Shown: positions 56,258 through 63,911, counted from the stretch's first letter. The stretch: DNA of 64,000 nt from Deltaproteobacteria bacterium (GCA_016219005.1 JACRCN010000054.1:17519-81518); one strand, 5' to 3'. Notes: generated from the sequence alone by a model not told the origin. Program-made: numbers and translations.

Positions 56258-58531
56258 ATGACGAAGCCGTTGGTCGTGGTGGAATCGCCGGCAAAAGTCC
56301 GGACCATCAAAAAATACCTGGGCAATGGTTACACCGTGGCCGCCACCGTCGGCCATATCCGGGACCTGCCTCAACGTGAAATGGGGATCGACGTGGACGC
56401 CGGCTTCACGCCCAAGTACACGACCATCCCCGGCAAGCAGAAGGTGCTCCAGGAGCTCAAACGGGCCGCCGCGGACGCAAAGGACATCTACCTCGCCTCC
56501 GACCCAGACCGCGAGGGCGAGGCCATTGCCTGGCATACGGCCGACGTGCTCAAGCAAAAGGGCCGGCGCTTTCACCGGGTCCTCTTCCATGAACTCACGA
56601 AAGACGCCATCGAAAAGGCCATGACCCGGCCGCTGGAGCTGGACCGCCACAAGTTCGAGGCGCAGCAGGCGCGCCGGATATTGGACCGCCTGGTGGGCTA
56701 CCAGGTCTCCCCGCTCCTGTGGCGCAAGGTCAAGGGCGGGCTGAGTGCGGGCCGGGTGCAGTCCGTGGCCGTGCGTATCATCTGCGAGCGCGAGCGTGCG
56801 ATCCAGGCCTTCGTGCCCGAGGAGTACTGGTCGATCACGGCTCATCTGCAGGCCGGCGCGCCCCCGCCGTTTGCCGCCAAGCTCGTCAAAAAGGGCAAGG
56901 AGAAGATAAGCATACCGAACGAAGCGGCGGCCCGCCAGATCCTGGACGAAATCAACGGCGCGCCCTTCATCGTGGAGAAGGTCCAGAAGAAGACCGTCCG
57001 CAAGAACCCCGCACCCCCGTTCACGACGAGCAAGCTGCAGCAGGAGTCCATCCGCAAGCTGCGGTTCACCGCCAAGAAAACCATGATGCTGGCCCAGCAG
57101 CTCTATGAGGGCATCGACTTGGGGCCCGGGGAGCCGGTGGGCCTCATCACCTACATGCGCACCGATTCGGTGCGGATCGCGGAGGTGGCCGCCGCCGAGG
57201 CGCAAGAGATCATCCGCGAGCGCTTCGGCAATAATTTCGCTCTGGAAAAGCCCCGCACCTTCAAGAACTCGAAACAGTCCCAGGATGCGCACGAAGCCAT
57301 CCGCCCCACCTCGGTCTTCAACACGCCGGAAAAAGTGGCTCCCCATCTCAGCGCCGACCAACTGGCGCTCTACCAGCTGATATGGCAGCGCTTCATCGCC
57401 TCCCAGATGCCGGAGGCCCTGATCGACCAGGTGACCGCATCCATCAAGGCCGGGGCGTACCTCTTCACCGCCACCGGCTCCGCCGTCAAGTTTGCGGGCT
57501 TCATGACGCTGTACCGCGCGGAGGAGGAGGATGGCAACGGCGACAAGGGCCGGGAGCAGCTCCCGGACCTGAACGAGGGCACCCGCCTGGATCTTCACCG
57601 TCTGGAGCCCAAACAGCATTTCACCCAGCCGCCGCCGCGCTTCTCGGAGGCATCGCTCGTGAAGGAGCTGGAGGAGAACGGCATCGGCCGCCCAAGCACC
57701 TACGCCTCCATACTGTCCACCATTCGGGACAAAGGCTACGTGGACTTGCTGCGGGGCTACTTCCGGCCGAGCGAGCTCGGCTTCATCGTGAACGACCTGC
57801 TGGTGATGAGCTTCTCGGATGTCTTCGACGTCGAGTTTACCGCGAAGATGGAAAACAACCTGGACCTGGTCGAAACCGACCAGGTCAACTCCCAGGAGAT
57901 CCTGAGCCAGTTCTACACACCGTTCAAGAAGGACCTCGACACCGCGGCCGAGAAGATGGTGAGCATCAAGGGGGTGGGCTTCGCCACGGACCTGAGCTGC
58001 CCGGAATGCGGAAGCATCCTGCACATCAAGATCGGGAAAAACGGCCACTTCATCGCCTGCAGCGCTTACCCCGAGTGCCGGTACTCGCGCGACTACACCC
58101 GCGACGAGAGAGGCCACATCCAGCCGGTGTCGCCGCCGACCGACGAGGTGACGGACAAGGTCTGCGAGAAGTGCGGCAAACCCATGGTCATCAAGAGGGG
58201 CCGCTACGGAGATTTCATAGCCTGCAGCGGCTTTCCGGATTGCAAGAACACTCAGTCCCTGTCCGTCAACGGCGGGGCCAAAAGCACCGGCGTTGCATGC
58301 CCGGAGTCGGGCTGCACCGGCGAGATCCTGGAAAAGACCTCCAAGCGCGGCAAGGTGTTCTACGGCTGCAACCGCTACCCGGACTGCGGCTTCGCCACCT
58401 GGGACAAGCCCGTCGCCCGGGAGTGCCCGGCCTGCGGGGCCAAATTACTGGTGGAGCGCACGACCAAGAAGCAGGGGACCGTCCATTCGTGCCTGAATCC
58501 GGATTGCGGGTTCAAGGAGCAGGTCGGGTAG
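56258..58531 (+). CDS. topA: DNA topoisomerase I
   Basis: Toprim VVVESPAKVRTIKKYLG, DPDREGEAIAWH, the active-site Tyr region YMRTDS, and four C-terminal CxxC...CxxC zinc ribbons. Confidence 0.95.
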   Translation: MTKPLVVVESPAKVRTIKKYLGNGYTVAATVGHIRDLPQREMGIDVDAGFTPKYTTIPGKQKVLQELKRAAADAKDIYLASDPDREGEAIAWHTADVLKQKGRRFHRVLFHELTKDAIEKAMTRPLELDRHKFEAQQARRILDRLVGYQVSPLLWRKVKGGLSAGRVQSVAVRIICERERAIQAFVPEEYWSITAHLQAGAPPPFAAKLVKKGKEKISIPNEAAARQILDEINGAPFIVEKVQKKTVRKNPAPPFTTSKLQQESIRKLRFTAKKTMMLAQQLYEGIDLGPGEPVGLITYMRTDSVRIAEVAAAEAQEIIRERFGNNFALEKPRTFKNSKQSQDAHEAIRPTSVFNTPEKVAPHLSADQLALYQLIWQRFIASQMPEALIDQVTASIKAGAYLFTATGSAVKFAGFMTLYRAEEEDGNGDKGREQLPDLNEGTRLDLHRLEPKQHFTQPPPRFSEASLVKELEENGIGRPSTYASILSTIRDKGYVDLLRGYFRPSELGFIVNDLLVMSFSDVFDVEFTAKMENNLDLVETDQVNSQEILSQFYTPFKKDLDTAAEKMVSIKGVGFATDLSCPECGSILHIKIGKNGHFIACSAYPECRYSRDYTRDERGHIQPVSPPTDEVTDKVCEKCGKPMVIKRGRYGDFIACSGFPDCKNTQSLSVNGGAKSTGVACPESGCTGEILEKTSKRGKVFYGCNRYPDCGFATWDKPVARECPACGAKLLVERTTKKQGTVHSCLNPDCGFKEQVG

Positions 58532-58609
58532 ACGTGTCGACTGAGCCGATCGAACCCTTTGAGTCGGTTGCGATGGACTGACCGCCGTCAGCCGTATGCT
58601 ACAATTCCC

Positions 58610-58638
58610 TTGACATTGCTTCGGCGGCCTGTTAGCGT
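58610..58638 (+). promoter_or_regulatory. Candidate sigma70 promoter of the ilv leader (TTGACA-N17-TAGCGT)
   Basis: Perfect -35 at 58610..58615, a 17-nt spacer, then a -10 at 58633..58638 with T1, A2 and T6 conserved. Confidence 0.45.
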
Positions 58639-58671
58639 TAAGGAAAATTCAACTTCAACGAATAGCGTTTT

Positions 58672-58773
58672 ATGCAGAAGCTGATCGCCATTATCAACGT
58701 AATCGTACTTAGGCTCATTCTTATCGTCGGCCTCATTACCGGCGATGAGAAACAGGGGTTGGTAATGGTGTAA
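58672..58773 (+). CDS. ilv operon leader peptide (33 aa; 18 residues are Ile, Leu or Val)
   Basis: MQKLIAIINVIVLRLILIVGLITGDEKQGLVMV has 7 Ile, 6 Leu and 5 Val. It is followed by alternative pairing segments and a terminator directly upstream of ilvB. There is no strong SD. Confidence 0.65.
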   Translation: MQKLIAIINVIVLRLILIVGLITGDEKQGLVMV

Positions 58774-58791
58774 GCAAAGCATCCCGAAAAT

Positions 58792-58837
58792 AAAAAAATC
58801 CGTTACCAGCCCTGGAGGCGGTAACGGATTTTTTTTT
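58792..58837 (+). terminator. Attenuator (Rho-independent terminator) between the leader peptide and ilvB
   Basis: aaaaaaatccgttacc (12-nt loop) ggtaacggattttttttt forms a 10-bp stem plus a U-tract. The upstream segment ggtaatgg (58761..58768) can pair either with tcattacc (58733..58740) or with ccgttacc (58800..58807), giving 1:2 / 2:3 / 3:4 alternatives. Confidence 0.75.
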
Positions 58838-58866
58838 GCTCAAACTCGGCACGGAGACGACGGCTT

Positions 58867-60549
58867 ATGATGACAGGCGCCCAGATCCTGATGAACATCC
58901 TGAAAGACGAGAACGTGGATACCATTTTCGGATTTCCCGGAGGAGCCGTCATCGACATTTATGACGAGCTTGCCCGGACCGGCATCCGTCACATACTGGT
59001 CCGGCATGAGCAGGGTGCGGTGCACGCCGCCGACGGCTATGCCCGGGCGAGCGGCAAGGTGGGGGTGTGCCTGGTCACCTCCGGGCCCGGGGCCACCAAC
59101 ACGGTGACCGGGATCGCCTCGGCCTTCGCCGACTCCATTCCCATCGTTGTGCTCACCGGCCAGGTGCCGACCCATCTCATCGGCAACGACGCCTTCCAGG
59201 AAGTGGACATCGTCGGCATCACGCGCTCCTGCACCAAGCACAACTACCTCGTAGAGTCGATCACCGACCTGGCCCGGATCCTCAAGGAGGCCTTCTACCT
59301 CGCCCGCTCGGGCCGGCCCGGTCCGGTGCTCGTCGATATCCCGAAAAACATCGCCAGCGCCAAAACCGACTTCACGCCCCCCGGGGACGTGCGCCTGCGC
59401 TCGTACAACCCGACCTACCGACCGAACCAGAAGCAAATGCGCGAAGTCGTCCGGCTCCTCCAGGCGGCCGAGCGCCCGCTGATCTTCGCCGGAGGGGGGG
59501 TAATTCTCTCCAAGGGTGCGGCCGAGCTGACGCACCTGGCGCAGACGGCCCGCATCCCCGTCACGACCTCGCTGATGGGCCTGGGAGCGTTCCCGGGCTC
59601 GGATCCGCTCTTTCTCGGAATGATCGGGATGCACGGCACCTACGCGGCCAACATGAGCGCATCGACCTGCGACCTCATGCTGGCCGTCGGCGTGCGCTTC
59701 GACGATCGCGTGACCGGGAAAACCGACGCGTTCGCGCGCCAGGCCGCCATCGTGCACATCGACATCGACCCGACCTCGATCCGCAAGAACATCCCGGTCA
59801 GCGTTCCCCTCGTCGGCGACTGCCGCATCAGCCTGCAGATGTTGAACGAGATGACCGGGACCGCGGCGGGCGATGCGCCCAGCCCCGCGCGCGTCGAGTG
59901 GCTCGGCCGGATCGCGGAATGGAAGCGGACCCAGCCGCTGTCGTATCATCAGGGGGAGTCCATCAAGCCCCAACACGTCGTCGAAAAAGTGTGCGAGCTA
60001 ACCCGGGGAGAGGCGATCATCACCACCGAGGTCGGTCAGAACCAGATGTGGGCCGCCCAGTTCTACCGGTTCGATCACCCCAACCGATTCATCACCTCCG
60101 GCGGGCTGGGCTGCATGGGCTTCGGGCTGCCGGCGGCCATCGGCGCCCAGATCGCCTGCCCGGACCAGGTGGTAGTGGACATCGCCGGCGACGGCAGCAT
60201 CCAGATGAACATCCAGGAGATGGCCACCGCTGTCCAGTACAACCTGCCCATCAAGATCGTCATCCTCAACAACGGCTACCTCGGCATGGTGCGCCAGTGG
60301 CAGGAGCTATTCTACGGCCGGCGCTACAGCTCCACCCGCATGAATCACGCGCCGGACTTCGTCAAGCTTGCCGAGGCTTACGGCGCGGTGGGCCTGCGGG
60401 CGACCCGCCCCGAGGAGATGGAGCCGGTGCTGAAGCAGGGCCTGGCGGAACGCAAGCCGGTGATCATGGACATCGTGGTCGAAGCCGAAGAGGGCGTCTA
60501 TCCGATGGTCCCGTCCGGCGCGCCGATCACCGAAATGCTTTTGGTGTGA
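58867..60549 (+). CDS. ilvB: Acetolactate synthase large subunit
   Basis: GFPGGAVIDIYDEL, VTSGPGATN, and the TPP motif GGLGCMGFGLPAAIGA...GDGSIQMNIQE. Confidence 0.95.
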   Translation: MMTGAQILMNILKDENVDTIFGFPGGAVIDIYDELARTGIRHILVRHEQGAVHAADGYARASGKVGVCLVTSGPGATNTVTGIASAFADSIPIVVLTGQVPTHLIGNDAFQEVDIVGITRSCTKHNYLVESITDLARILKEAFYLARSGRPGPVLVDIPKNIASAKTDFTPPGDVRLRSYNPTYRPNQKQMREVVRLLQAAERPLIFAGGGVILSKGAAELTHLAQTARIPVTTSLMGLGAFPGSDPLFLGMIGMHGTYAANMSASTCDLMLAVGVRFDDRVTGKTDAFARQAAIVHIDIDPTSIRKNIPVSVPLVGDCRISLQMLNEMTGTAAGDAPSPARVEWLGRIAEWKRTQPLSYHQGESIKPQHVVEKVCELTRGEAIITTEVGQNQMWAAQFYRFDHPNRFITSGGLGCMGFGLPAAIGAQIACPDQVVVDIAGDGSIQMNIQEMATAVQYNLPIKIVILNNGYLGMVRQWQELFYGRRYSSTRMNHAPDFVKLAEAYGAVGLRATRPEEMEPVLKQGLAERKPVIMDIVVEAEEGVYPMVPSGAPITEMLLV

Positions 60550-60564
60550 CAAAGGAGGCCCCGG

Positions 60565-61053
60565 ATGGCGGAAGACAAACATGTCATGACCATGCTGGTA
60601 GACAATCAGCCCGGCGTCACGTCGCGGGTGACGGGACTTTTCAGCAGCAAGGGCTTCAACATCGAAAGCATCTGCGGCAGCCCGACCAACGACCCCAACG
60701 TGTCGCGCATCACCATTGTGACGGCGGCCAATCCGCCGGTCATCGAGCAGATCGAAAAACAGCTGCGCAAACTCGTCAACGTCATCAAGCTGCGCAGCCT
60801 CAACGGTCCCAAGTCGGTCCGGCGCGAGCTCGCCCTCATCTGCGTCCATGCCAAGGCCGAGCAGCGCGCGGAGGTGCTCCGGATCGTAGACATTTTCCGA
60901 GGCAAAATCGTCGACGCGGGCCTCGAGCACTTCATCATCGAAGTGACCGGTGAAGAGGCGAAGATCCAGGCCGTCCTGAACCTGCTCAAACCCATCGGAA
61001 TCAAGAAGCTCGCCCGGACGGGCATGATCGGGTTGATCCGGGAACCGAAATGA
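60565..61053 (+). CDS. ilvN: Acetolactate synthase small (regulatory) subunit
   Basis: ACT domain LVDNQPGVTSRVTGLFSSKGFNIESI, with a C-terminal AHAS small-subunit domain. Confidence 0.9.
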   Translation: MAEDKHVMTMLVDNQPGVTSRVTGLFSSKGFNIESICGSPTNDPNVSRITIVTAANPPVIEQIEKQLRKLVNVIKLRSLNGPKSVRRELALICVHAKAEQRAEVLRIVDIFRGKIVDAGLEHFIIEVTGEEAKIQAVLNLLKPIGIKKLARTGMIGLIREPK

Positions 61054-61191
61054 AAGCGTCGAGGGGCCGGGGGAGCCTGGGTTCACGTGCCGGACAACCT
61101 GCTTTTCACATGGAACCTTGAAGCCTCGTAACGCACAGAATCGAGAAGTCACCCATAGAGAAATTAAACCACAAAACGAAGGAGCAATCAG

Positions 61192-62241
61192 ATGGCAACA
61201 TTCGATTTCGGCGGAATGATGGAAGAAGTGGTGAAGGACGACGAGTTCCCCCTGCAGCGTGCCCGGGAAGTACTGAAAAACGAAGTGGTGGCCGTGATCG
61301 GCTATGGCGTCCAGGGGCCGGGGCAGGCGCTCAACATGCGCGACAACGGCATCCGGGTCATCGTGGGACAACGCACGGGCGGAAAGTCCTGGCAGCGGGC
61401 GATGGACGACGGGTTCGTCCCCGGCGAGACGCTCTTTTCACCGGAAGAGGCGGCCCGGCGCGCCACCGTCGTGCAGTACCTGCTCTCGGATGCCGGGCAG
61501 GTGGCCATGTGGCCGAAGATCAAAGCCTGCCTGACGGAGGCCAATACGCTGTATTTCTCCCACGGCTTTTCCATCGTCTACAAGGACCAGACCGGGATTA
61601 TCCCGCCGCCCAACGTGGATGTCGTCCTGGTGGCGCCCAAGGGCTCCGGCCGCACGGTGCGCACGAACTTCCTGAACGGCTCCGGCATCAACGCGAGCTT
61701 CGCCGTCTTCCAGGACTACACCGGCAAGGCCCGGGAGAAGACCCTGGCCCTGGGGATCGCCATCGGCTCGGGTTACCTCTTCCCCACCACCTTCGAGCGC
61801 GAAGTCGTGAGTGACCTCACCGGCGAGCGGGGTATCCTGATGGGCGCTCTCGCCGGGGTCATGGAGGCCCAGTACACCCTGCTGCGCAAGCACGGCCACA
61901 CCCCGAGCGAGGCGTTCAACGAAACCGTGGAGGAGCTCACCCAGAGCCTCATCGGGCTGGTGGGCGAAAAGGGCATGGACTGGATGTTCGCCAACTGTTC
62001 CACCACGGCCCAGCGCGGGGCACTGGACTGGGCGCCCCGGTTCCGGGACGCGGTGGCCCCGGTCTTCGATGAGCTCTACCAGCGGGTCACGAGCGGCCAG
62101 GAGACGCGGCGGGTGCTCGAGGCCAACAGCACCCCGGACTACCGCGAAAAACTCGACCGGGAGCTTGCCGCCATGCACAACTCCGAGATGTGGCGGGCAG
62201 GGGCTGCCGTGCGCTCGCTCAGGCCCGAAAACCGGAAATAA
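61192..62241 (+). CDS. ilvC: Ketol-acid reductoisomerase (class I)
   Basis: VIGYGVQGPGQALNMRDNG, APKGSGRTVR, ERGILMGAL, and a knotted C-terminal domain. SD AAGGAG. Confidence 0.9.
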   Translation: MATFDFGGMMEEVVKDDEFPLQRAREVLKNEVVAVIGYGVQGPGQALNMRDNGIRVIVGQRTGGKSWQRAMDDGFVPGETLFSPEEAARRATVVQYLLSDAGQVAMWPKIKACLTEANTLYFSHGFSIVYKDQTGIIPPPNVDVVLVAPKGSGRTVRTNFLNGSGINASFAVFQDYTGKAREKTLALGIAIGSGYLFPTTFEREVVSDLTGERGILMGALAGVMEAQYTLLRKHGHTPSEAFNETVEELTQSLIGLVGEKGMDWMFANCSTTAQRGALDWAPRFRDAVAPVFDELYQRVTSGQETRRVLEANSTPDYREKLDRELAAMHNSEMWRAGAAVRSLRPENRK

Positions 62242-62276
62242 CCGATCGGGGGTTTTCCACCCCGGTGGAGACACCG

Positions 62277-63911
<1,635 letters not shown>

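What the first reader, a model, noticed from the sequence alone, without database searches (positions are those of the whole stretch)
58610..58837. Classical leader-peptide transcription attenuator upstream of ilvBN-ilvC-cimA-leuA
Between topA and ilvB there is a promoter-like TTGACA-N17-TAGCGT. It is followed by a 33-codon ORF, MQKLIAIINVIVLRLILIVGLITGDEKQGLVMV, in which 18 of 33 residues are Ile, Leu or Val. Next come four segments capable of 1:2, 2:3 and 3:4 pairing: tcattacc (58733..58740), ggtaatgg (58761..58768), ccgttacc (58800..58807) and ggtaacgg (58820..58827). The last pair forms a 10-bp terminator stem with a long U-tract 30 nt before the ilvB ATG. This is the enterobacterial ilv/leu attenuation logic. 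It is seldom annotated outside Gammaproteobacteria and is not captured by the ORF track, because the peptide is below the size cut-off and an antisense 64-aa ORF masks it.
Basis: partly seen in the sequence, partly recalled or inferred. Interest (0 to 1): 0.6.

Follow-up and report, generated by a model that had tools for sequence, protein, structure and literature searches.

The report
Branched-chain amino acid leader-peptide attenuator
A short, isoleucine/leucine/valine-rich upstream reading frame followed by mutually exclusive RNA hairpins sits in front of the ilvB-ilvN-ilvC-cimA operon. It is very probably a classical ribosome-sensing transcription attenuator: a textbook mechanism, found here as an unannotated sequence family conserved across Desulfobacterales.

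Summary
They hold a 33-codon ORF (58672-58773, 18/33 Ile/Leu/Val), a 16-bp perfect terminator stem plus T9 (58792-58837), and overlapping alternative pairings.

The same element occurs in 18 related Desulfobacterales loci, always at the 5' end of the ilv operon. The first gene there is ilvB in 13 loci and ilvD in 5, and the upstream gene varies. A profile built from the relatives alone hits the window once on the sense strand, at 58672-58836 (E 7e-33).

The antiterminator (58756-68 with 58800-12) is paired in 94.7% of cells and shows compensatory changes. One position covaries three ways, between the antiterminator arm and both terminator arms.

The geometry is conserved:
- The Ile/Leu/Val codons end 12-18 nt before region 2.
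- The stop codon lies inside region 2 or 3-6 nt after it, in two different frames.

- The partner of region 2 used in the predicted fold is 58688-58698.
- A conserved extra hairpin lies inside the ORF.
- The leader ORF has no clear Shine-Dalgarno sequence.

No Rfam, Pfam or NCBIfam family matches. Where the peptides have been called at all, they are unnamed or 'hypothetical protein'. The mechanism is well known and function was not tested, so this is a new member of a known kind.

The parts
58610..58615 (+). -35 hexamer TTGACA
   Evidence: Read. TTGAC[A/T] occurs at the equivalent position in 18 of 19 family leaders.
58630..58638 (+). Extended -10 element (TGt + TAGCGT), 17-nt spacer; inferred transcription start near 58645
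   Evidence: A TAnnnn hexamer lies 17 nt after the -35 (18 nt in two loci). About three quarters of the 18 promoters have TG immediately upstream of it. The -10 ends 27-46 nt before the leader ATG. The hexamer matches TATAAT at only 3 of 6 positions, so the consensus scan did not report it. The transcription start is inferred, not mapped.
58645..58671 (+). Short A/U-rich 5' UTR of the leader, with no Shine-Dalgarno sequence near the ATG
   Evidence: Only weak or no AGGA-like motifs occur in the window and in most relatives. This is the main caveat for translation of the leader.
58672..58773 (+). Leader peptide ORF (33 codons): 7 Ile, 5 Leu and 3 Val within codons 4-22
   Evidence: Enrichment is frame-specific across 19 leaders: 0.51 in frame, against 0.22 and 0.06 in the other frames. 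Seven of the 15 Ile/Leu/Val codons are ATT, CTT or GTA, each of which makes up 6-8% of its amino acid's codons in neighbouring genes.
58688..58698 (+). Region 1 (CCAUUAUCAAC, codons 6-9): 5' strand of the anti-antiterminator, pairs with 58758-58768
   Evidence: (repeat I3) and the predicted fold. 80.4% of cells are paired in 19 sequences, against 35-54% for the slid controls computed jointly with the terminator helix.
58718..58751 (+). Inner hairpin inside the ORF (13 bp, -19.2 kcal/mol).
Evidence: An equivalent hairpin of -13 to -25 kcal/mol, with different sequences, occurs in 17 of 19 leaders, usually with Ile codons AUUAUU in the loop.
58756..58768 (+). Region 2 (GGGUUGGUAAUGG): shared strand that pairs with region 1 or with region 3. 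The stop codon (58771-58773) follows 2 nt later
   Evidence: In the family the stop codon starts +4, +7, +15 or +18 from the start of region 2.
58800..58812 (+). Region 3 (CCGUUACCAGCCC): pairs with region 2 to form the antiterminator (-21.6 kcal/mol), or with region 4 to form the terminator
   Evidence: 94.7% of cells are paired, 4 pairs show compensatory changes, 0 of 500 shuffles reach the observed score, and slid controls give 25-54%.
58792..58837 (+). Intrinsic terminator: 16-bp perfect stem plus 3 further pairs, an A-tract 5' of it and T9 3' of it (58829-58837); -24.7 kcal/mol
   Evidence: 92% of cells are paired, and one position covaries as CG/UA/GC. The consensus scan missed it because its loop limit is 8 nt.
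58867..63911 (+). Regulated operon: ilvB 58867-60549, ilvN 60565-61053, ilvC 61192-62241, cimA 62277-63911
   Evidence: NCBIfam equivalog matches above their curated cut-offs.

Best explanation
This is a ribosome-mediated (leader-peptide) transcription attenuator that controls ilvB-ilvN-ilvC-cimA in response to charged Ile, Leu and Val tRNAs.

Proposed sequence of events:

1. Transcription starts near 58645 from a conserved TTGACA / extended -10 promoter.
2. A ribosome translates the 33-codon leader ORF.
3. When supply is good, the ribosome runs on to the last codons and the stop (58771-58773) and covers region 2 (58756-58768). Region 3 then stays free until region 4 emerges. The terminator (58792-58835 plus T9) forms and RNA polymerase stops about 30 nt before ilvB.
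4. When Ile, Leu or Val is short, the ribosome stalls somewhere in codons 4-22. It melts or blocks region 1 (58688-58698) and the inner hairpin but leaves region 2 exposed. Region 2 then pairs with region 3 as soon as region 3 is made (13 bp, -21.6 kcal/mol). This sequesters the terminator's 5' arm, so polymerase reads into ilvB.
5. Without translation, region 1 pairs with region 2 and the inner hairpin forms first (-36 kcal/mol together). This would favour termination kinetically.

Shown here: the sequence anatomy, the conservation, the covariation of the alternative helices and the codon geometry. Inferred: the transcription start, translation of the leader, actual termination and its response to amino acids.
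For: Anatomy in the window:
- The ORF, the terminator, the antiterminator and the anti-antiterminator are all present.
- Their stabilities are ordered roughly -17 (region 1 with region 2) < -21.6 (antiterminator) < -24.7 kcal/mol (terminator).

Family:
- There are 18 homologous leaders in Desulfobacterales genomes and metagenomes.
- A profile built from the relatives alone hits the window at 58672-58836 with E 6.8e-33. The only other hit is the palindromic terminator on the opposite strand.

Association with the ilv operon:
- The element precedes ilvB in 13 loci and ilvD-ilvB in 5.
- The upstream gene is topA in most loci. In L011 it is a divergent membrane protein, in L024 an unrelated gene on the same strand, and in L105 an ilvB/ilvN paralogue pair.
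- A scan of all 160 fetched loci for Ile/Leu/Val-rich sORFs followed by a T-run gave 19 hits on the ilv strand. The opposite strand gave 1, which is the antisense of a leader.

Structure:
- Antiterminator: 94.7% of cells paired, 4 pairs with compensatory changes, 0 of 500 shuffles reach the score.
- Terminator: 92% paired. Region 1 with region 2: 80% paired.
- One position covaries three ways. Region 2 / region 3 / region 4 read G/C/G in 6 sequences and A/U/A in 11.

Geometry:
- The last sensing codon lies 12-18 nt before region 2 in all 19 leaders.
- The stop codon lies inside region 2 or 3-6 nt after it.
- In masked folding, a ribosome at the stop leaves 0 antiterminator pairs in 18 of 19 leaders (3 in L002). 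A ribosome at the sensing codons lets at least 9 pairs form in most cases.
- The reading frame relative to region 2 differs between members. The C-terminal 'GLVMV/GLIMA' is therefore constrained as RNA, not as peptide.

Coding signal:
- Ile/Leu/Val enrichment is frame-specific (0.51 against 0.22 and 0.06). Ile exceeds Leu, which exceeds Val; this fits an operon that includes cimA, the citramalate route to isoleucine.
- Rare codons are enriched.

Promoter: conserved in 18 of 19 leaders.

Precedent: experimentally proven ilvBNC leader-peptide attenuation exists in Corynebacterium glutamicum, where the leader mRNA also lacks a Shine-Dalgarno sequence (PMC11857589).
Against: - No Shine-Dalgarno sequence lies within about 15 nt of the leader ATG in the window, and it is weak or absent in most relatives. 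Efficient translation of the leader is therefore assumed.
- At equilibrium the transcript truncated at 58814 prefers the antiterminator even without a ribosome. Termination in the untranslated state rests on kinetic arguments.
- Three Leu/Val codons (30, 31 and 33) lie inside region 2. Stalling there would favour termination.
- No transcript 3'-end, transcription-start or ribosome-profiling data were available.
- The covariation statistics come from related sequences and from a MAFFT alignment. The shuffle control does not correct for phylogeny, although the slid controls do.
Confidence: 0.87

Rival explanations
1. The hairpin is simply the intrinsic terminator of the upstream topA gene, and the Ile/Leu/Val-rich ORF and alternative pairings are fortuitous.
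For: topA ends at 58531 and I saw no terminator of its own between it and the leader. dprA-topA-ilvB synteny is common among relatives. The terminator may therefore also stop topA read-through.
Against: The terminator lies 261 nt past the topA stop, with a conserved promoter in between. The whole element recurs upstream of ilvB or ilvD where the upstream gene is not topA or is divergent. The sORF, the antiterminator covariation and the stop-codon geometry are conserved.
Confidence: 0.03
2. The sORF encodes a functional small hydrophobic (membrane) peptide with its own terminator, and is not a regulatory sensor.
For: The peptide is strongly hydrophobic. Gene callers sometimes predict relatives as 'hypothetical protein'.
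Against: The C-terminal frame is not conserved: the stop falls in two frames relative to region 2. Enrichment is specific to Ile/Leu/Val, with few Phe, Ala, Trp or Met. The position is strictly at the head of ilv operons. The conserved 'peptide' motifs coincide with RNA helices.
Confidence: 0.03
3. The terminator/antiterminator switch is real but is set by something other than a translating ribosome, such as a protein, an uncharged tRNA or a metabolite binding the leader RNA. The ORF would then be incidental or secondary.
For: No Shine-Dalgarno sequence precedes the leader ATG. A well-conserved inner hairpin has no assigned role.
Against: No T-box or other Rfam family reaches E <= 10 in 58400-59000. 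The ATG, the open frame, the frame-specific Ile/Leu/Val richness and the fixed spacing of sensing codons and stop to region 2 are conserved in all 19 leaders. Nothing but translation explains those features.
Confidence: 0.05

Closest known systems
Escherichia coli ilvL, the ilvXGMEDA operon leader peptide and attenuator (NC_000913.3 3950322-3950420)
   Same: Both have a leader ORF of 32 or 33 codons rich in Ile, Leu and Val, so the sensing is multivalent. In both, an intrinsic terminator with a long T-run follows about 55-65 nt after the stop. Both sit at the head of a branched-chain amino acid operon. The mutually exclusive hairpin logic of the E. coli element is textbook knowledge.
   Different: No detectable homology. 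The profile-profile comparison gives probability 17% over 15 columns. Pfam IlvGEDA_leader matches 1 of 14 peptides at E 0.15 and does not match the window peptide. The RNA arms have unrelated sequences. The first regulated gene here is ilvB (or ilvD in some relatives). The element here has a nested inner hairpin and no obvious Shine-Dalgarno sequence.
Corynebacterium glutamicum ilvBNC leader (IlvL, MTIIRLVVVTARRLP), three-hairpin attenuator and ilvB-II motif
   Same: The regulated operon is the same (ilvB-ilvN-ilvC). It uses anti-antiterminator, antiterminator and terminator hairpins. It senses Ile, Leu and Val. Its leader mRNA also lacks a Shine-Dalgarno sequence, because the transcription start is 1 nt from the start codon. 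It has been proven experimentally (PMC11857589; PMC10272879).
   Different: It has a 15-codon leader and a 292-nt leader region, with unrelated sequence, in a different phylum. Here the ORF spans region 1, the inner hairpin and region 2, and the terminator lies only about 30 nt from ilvB.
ilvB-OMG and Leptospira ilvB RNA motifs (candidate uORF attenuators upstream of ilvB)
   Same: These are conserved structured leaders upstream of ilvB. They carry an in-frame uORF rich in branched-chain amino acid codons and are proposed to act by attenuation (PMC10272879).
   Different: They are different sequence families in different lineages. The alignment rows of another ilvB leader motif printed in that paper's supplement share no motif with this element; the motif label was not in the stored text, and I take them to be ilvB-OMG. 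No Rfam family was hit in the window region.

Membership tests
Classical ribosome-mediated (leader-peptide) transcription attenuator (trp/his/leu/ilv type) | Short ORF in the 5' leader of an amino acid biosynthetic operon, enriched in codons for that pathway's end products | tested here: met
   33 codons, 18 of them Ile/Leu/Val, upstream of ilvBNC-cimA. Enrichment is frame-specific in 19 leaders. It is the top-ranked of 407 sORFs in the window.
Classical ribosome-mediated (leader-peptide) transcription attenuator (trp/his/leu/ilv type) | Intrinsic terminator between the leader ORF and the first structural gene | tested here: met
   A 16+3-bp stem of -24.7 kcal/mol with T9, 29 nt before the ilvB ATG. 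It is conserved, with 92% of cells paired. This is sequence-level evidence only.
Classical ribosome-mediated (leader-peptide) transcription attenuator (trp/his/leu/ilv type) | Antiterminator helix mutually exclusive with the terminator | tested here: met
   58756-68 pairs with 58800-12. 94.7% of cells are paired, with compensatory changes and three-way covariation with the terminator's 3' arm.
Classical ribosome-mediated (leader-peptide) transcription attenuator (trp/his/leu/ilv type) | Ribosome position decides the fold: the sensing codons sit upstream of region 2 and overlap its competing partner, and the stop codon is close enough for a terminating ribosome to cover region 2 | tested here: met
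   Masked folding gives the antiterminator with the A site at codons 1-24 and blocks it at codons 25-34. The gap from the last sensing codon to region 2 is 12-18 nt. The stop starts at +4 to +18 from the start of region 2 in all 19 leaders.
Classical ribosome-mediated (leader-peptide) transcription attenuator (trp/his/leu/ilv type) | The leader ORF is translated (start codon with a ribosome-binding site) | tested here: inconclusive
   Each of the 19 leaders has an ATG-initiated open frame, but the scan looked only for ATG starts. The Shine-Dalgarno sequence is absent or weak, and the 5' UTR is short and A/U-rich. There is precedent for Shine-Dalgarno-less ilv leaders.
Classical ribosome-mediated (leader-peptide) transcription attenuator (trp/his/leu/ilv type) | Premature termination in vivo that is relieved by starvation for the cognate amino acids | not testable with these tools
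   No transcriptome, Term-seq or reporter data are available for this organism.
Pfam IlvGEDA_leader (PF08046) and other curated leader-peptide families in Pfam and NCBIfam | Peptide matches the family profile above threshold | tested here: not met
   The window peptide matches no family. One of 14 relatives hits PF08046 at E 0.15. NCBIfam returned only weak matches (E >= 0.14) to unrelated families and no leader-peptide family. hhalign against E. coli IlvL gives probability 17%.
Rfam leader and riboswitch families (amino acid operon leaders, T-box and others) | Covariance-model match | tested here: not met
   The only matches at E <= 10 in 58400-59000 fall far below their gathering scores and are driven by the terminator hairpin (miRNA and sRNA models). 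None is a leader or T-box family. Eleven related loci gave no matches at gathering scores.
Desulfobacterales ilv leader family defined here (19 sequences) | Full-length match to a profile built without the window sequence | tested here: met
   nhmmer with the 18-relative profile matches window 58672-58836(+), model positions 1-163 of 163, E 6.8e-33.

The most novel reading that the evidence does not exclude
The element may be a distinct design variant rather than a copy of the trp/ilv scheme.

- Region 2 (GAUAAUGG) is complementary to Ile codon pairs (CC-AUU-AUC). These occur twice in the ORF, once in region 1 and once in the loop and 3' arm of a conserved, strong inner hairpin. The sensed codons would then themselves form two redundant anti-antiterminator strands.
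- The inner hairpin could act as a polymerase pause or a ribosome-timing device.
- The same terminator may also end topA transcripts. That would tie read-through from the conserved dprA-topA unit into ilv expression to branched-chain amino acid supply.
Probability: 0.2. Interest if true: 0.45.

Novelty: new member of a known kind. Interest (0 to 1): 0.35.

Why it matters
It gives a concrete and testable regulatory annotation for the branched-chain amino acid operon of Desulfobacterales. These are sulfate reducers known mostly from metagenome-assembled genomes. I found no published description of leader-peptide attenuation in them, and where the peptides were found in a protein collection they are unnamed or labelled 'hypothetical protein'.

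The 19-sequence alignment, with its covarying alternative helices, could seed an RNA-family model. Such a model would stop gene callers from emitting the spurious antisense ORF. It also adds another independent solution to the list of uORF attenuators of ilvB, which supports the view that this logic has evolved repeatedly.

It does not change understanding of the mechanism.

Tried and rejected
- Rfam, in E-value mode on the region and at gathering scores on 11 related loci: nothing relevant.
- Pfam and NCBIfam on the peptides: no leader family.
- Homology to E. coli IlvL: rejected.
- The promoter-like site reported by the consensus scan (58578-58605, CTGACC-16-TACAAT): not conserved. In relatives that stretch is simply A/T-rich sequence upstream of the -35, so it was not adopted.
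- Close relatives that seemed to lack the leader:
  - L004, L007, L008, L013 and L017 turned out to carry it in front of ilvD.
  - L009, L012 and L084 have leuD directly upstream, so ilvB or ilvD is mid-operon there.
  - L083, L085 and L086 are cut inside ilvD by the fetched flank.
  None of these is evidence of absence.
- Other T8 runs in the window (471 and 35332): no leader-like sORF or hairpin around them, and they read as coding sequence.
- Literature searches for attenuators in Deltaproteobacteria, Desulfobacterales, Desulfovibrio or Geobacter: nothing specific.
- The broad survey by Lopatovskaya et al. 2010 (PubMed id 20198868) is not held in the library. I cannot exclude that it lists such candidates.

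Full report
**1. What is in the sequence**

The 335-nt spacer between topA (56258-58531) and ilvB (58867-60549) holds the following features, in order.

- A TTGACA hexamer at 58610-58615.
- A 17-nt spacer ending in TGT, then TAGCGT at 58633-58638.
- A short A/U-rich stretch.
- An ATG-initiated ORF at 58672-58773. It encodes MQKLIAIINVIVLRLILIVGLITGDEKQGLVMV, with 18 of 33 residues Ile, Leu or Val.
- An A-tract.
- A perfect 16-bp inverted repeat, 58792-58807 with 58820-58835.
- T9 at 58829-58837.

The repeat finder extends them as follows.

- The antiterminator is 13 bp, 58756-58768 with 58800-58812, including two G-U pairs.
- Region 2 has a second and longer upstream partner at 58688-58698.

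Downstream genes are ilvN, ilvC and citramalate synthase cimA (62277-63911). leuA is beyond the window.

**2. Is it more than chance?**

- The leader folds at -70 kcal/mol (z = -6.0).
- The individual elements are each z = -4.3 to -6.3 against shuffles:

| Element | Free energy (kcal/mol) |
|---|---|
| Terminator | -24.7 |
| Antiterminator | -21.6 |
| Region 1 / region 2 plus inner hairpin | -36.2 |
| Inner hairpin alone | -19.2 |

- Of 407 ATG-initiated sORFs of 12-60 aa in the 64-kb window, this one has the highest local Ile/Leu/Val density (9 of 10; the runner-up has 7).
- 15 of codons 4-22 are Ile/Leu/Val, against about 24% in flanking genes (P about 7e-7).
- Seven of those 15 codons are ATT, CTT or GTA. 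Each makes up only 6-8% of its amino acid's codons in the neighbouring genes of this 61.5% G+C window.

**3. Comparative evidence**

I used IlvB to fetch 80 loci from genomes and 80 from metagenomes. The closest relatives are Desulfobacterales metagenome-assembled genomes with 70-79% IlvB identity.

An Ile/Leu/Val-rich sORF followed by a long T-run lies directly upstream of ilvB in L001, L002, L003, L005, L006, L011, L014, L015, L024, L081, L082, L095 and L105.

Five loci at first seemed to lack it: L004, L007, L008, L013 and L017. They carry the same terminator motif and sORF about 1.8 kb further upstream, in front of ilvD, which precedes ilvB there.

The remaining close relatives are uninformative.

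- In L009, L012 and L084, leuD abuts ilvD or ilvB, so these genes are mid-operon.
- In L083, L085 and L086 the fetched flank ends inside ilvD.

The element therefore marks the start of the ilv operon whatever its first gene. It is also independent of the upstream gene. That gene is topA in most loci, but a divergent membrane protein in L011, an unrelated gene on the same strand in L024 and an ilvB/ilvN paralogue pair in L105.

Two specificity checks support this.

- A blind scan of all 160 loci gave 19 hits on the ilv strand. The opposite strand gave 1, which is the antisense of a leader.
- A profile built from the 18 relatives alone matches the window only at 58672-58836, full length, E 6.8e-33. 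The one other match is the palindromic terminator on the minus strand.

**4. Structure**

These counts are from the 19-sequence alignment A3.

- Antiterminator: 94.7% of cells paired, 4 of 13 pairs with changes on both sides, and no shuffle out of 500 reaches the covariation score. Sliding the partner by 1-3 columns drops pairing to 25-54%.
- Terminator: 92% of cells paired.
- Region 1 with region 2: 80% of cells paired.

One position is especially diagnostic. The same column of region 3 pairs with region 2 as C-G or U-A, and with region 4 as C-G, U-A or G-C. The triplets read G/C/G in 6 sequences and A/U/A in 11. In two sequences only the terminator pairing is kept. Selection has therefore maintained both mutually exclusive helices.

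A further hairpin lies inside the ORF between regions 1 and 2. It reaches -13 to -25 kcal/mol in 17 of 19 leaders, with quite different stem sequences. Its loop usually holds Ile codons AUUAUU.

It keeps pairing potential with region 2 (84%) because AUUAUC is complementary to GAUAAU, but it shows no covariation beyond shuffles. Region 2 may thus have two Ile-codon partners. The one used in the predicted fold is 58688-58698.

**5. Geometry and mechanism**

I folded the nascent transcript up to the end of region 3 with a 29-nt ribosome footprint masked. The antiterminator forms for every A-site position from codon 1 to 24. It is blocked from codon 25 through the stop codon.

All 15 sensing codons lie in the permissive zone, and a six-codon spacer free of Ile/Leu/Val (TGDEKQ) follows them.

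Across the family:

- The gap from the last sensing codon to region 2 is 12-18 nt in all 19 leaders.
- The stop codon starts at +4, +7, +15 or +18 from the start of region 2. It is therefore inside region 2 or 3-6 nt after it, in two different frames.
- With a ribosome at the stop, no antiterminator pairs form in 18 of 19 leaders (3 form in L002).

The frame difference shows that the 'GLVMV/GLIMA' tail is conserved as RNA, not as peptide. Likewise, the conserved 'AI(I/Y)N' motif near the N-terminus coincides with region 1 (CCAUUAUCAAC, codons 6-9), which suggests an RNA constraint rather than a peptide one.

Ile/Leu/Val richness is frame-specific: 0.51, against 0.22 and 0.06 in the other frames. 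Its order is Ile 24% > Leu 17% > Val 10%. That order fits an operon containing cimA, the citramalate route to isoleucine.

Together this is the classical attenuation logic. A stalled ribosome gives the antiterminator and read-through. A ribosome at the stop gives the terminator.

**6. Promoter**

Eighteen of 19 leaders have TTGAC[A/T], a spacer of 17 nt (18 nt in two loci) and a TAnnnn hexamer. About three quarters of them have TG immediately upstream of that hexamer. The region upstream of the -35 is A-rich. The -10 ends 27-46 nt before the ATG.

The consensus scan missed this promoter in the window because TAGCGT matches TATAAT at only 3 of 6 positions. It flagged instead CTGACC-16-TACAAT at 58578-58605, which is not conserved.

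**7. Caveats**

- The leader ATG has no nearby Shine-Dalgarno sequence in the window, and it is weak in most relatives. ilvB itself has GGAG. The proven C. glutamicum ilvBNC leader is essentially leaderless, so this is not disqualifying, but translation is inferred.
- At equilibrium the truncated transcript prefers the antiterminator even without a ribosome. Termination in the untranslated state must be kinetic.
- No transcript-end or expression data exist for this organism.
- The shuffle control ignores phylogeny.

**8. Comparison with known systems and novelty**

No Rfam family matches the region. No Pfam or NCBIfam leader family matches the peptides.

E. coli ilvL, fetched for comparison, has the same size and logic but no detectable homology. 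The alignment rows of another ilvB leader motif printed in the supplement of PMC10272879, which I take to be ilvB-OMG, are unrelated.

The literature shows that leader-peptide control of ilvB is established or proposed in several phyla. I found nothing for Desulfobacterota.

In the protein collection, six of the ten family peptides I looked up are present and are unnamed or 'hypothetical protein'. The window's own peptide is absent. The antisense 64-aa ORF is not conserved.

**Verdict.** This is a real, well-supported and previously unannotated family. It is a new member of a well-known kind.

Noticed in passing
L016:644-843, L093:1134-1331, L090:1295-1474: A second, unrelated leader family lies upstream of ilvB in more distant loci, including a Syntrophaceae genome. 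Its sORFs are Val-rich, for example MFLKDLTGGNDLIINSVVVLVVVLTGSAALYL and MIYQRKQARNLMVVAVVVAVPKGSAAWFL. Two tandem terminator-like hairpins with shared sequence follow (..AAGCCGCGGGCCCC..CCGCGGCUUUGUUGUUU.. then AAGCCGC..GCGGCUUUUUU).
   Followed up: partly
L109:1225-1389 and L107 (sORF about 180-315 nt upstream of ilvB): A third type of Leu/Val-rich sORF occurs upstream of ilvB (MGQAGSILTVIILQLMGLLLVLVLKGCPLPG...). In L109 a strong hairpin and T7 follow it. Leader-peptide control of ilvB therefore seems to have several independent forms in this part of the tree.
   Followed up: partly
L004:1072-1233, L007:1050-1216, L008:1102-1269, L013:1113-1273, L017:900-1053: In these relatives the same leader family precedes ilvD, which is inserted ahead of ilvB. 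The attenuator stays at the operon's 5' end while the first gene changes.
   Followed up: yes
window 58531-58610: I saw no terminator of topA's own between its stop codon and the leader promoter, and dprA-topA-ilvB synteny is conserved in many relatives. Read-through from topA would enter the leader and meet the attenuator's terminator.
   Followed up: partly
window 58718-58751 and the equivalent position in 17 of 19 relatives: A conserved, strong hairpin lies inside the leader ORF, with Ile codons AUUAUU in its loop. Its role is unassigned; it could be a polymerase pause site, a ribosome timer or a scaffold that brings regions 1 and 2 together.
   Followed up: partly
window 58578-58605: This is the only site in 57500-60000 that the consensus scan called promoter-like (CTGACC-16-TACAAT with an upstream TG). 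It lies just upstream of the conserved -35 and is not conserved in relatives.
   Followed up: yes
L105:5-1189: A partial second ilvB and an ilvN-like gene lie immediately upstream of the leader-ilvB unit. This locus therefore has tandem acetolactate synthase gene pairs. The leader precedes the second pair; the start of the first pair lies outside the fetched DNA.
   Followed up: no
window 58588-58782 (-): A 64-aa antisense ORF overlaps the leader. Its counterparts in relatives range from 18 to 101 aa with no sequence conservation, so it is a spurious call.
   Followed up: yes
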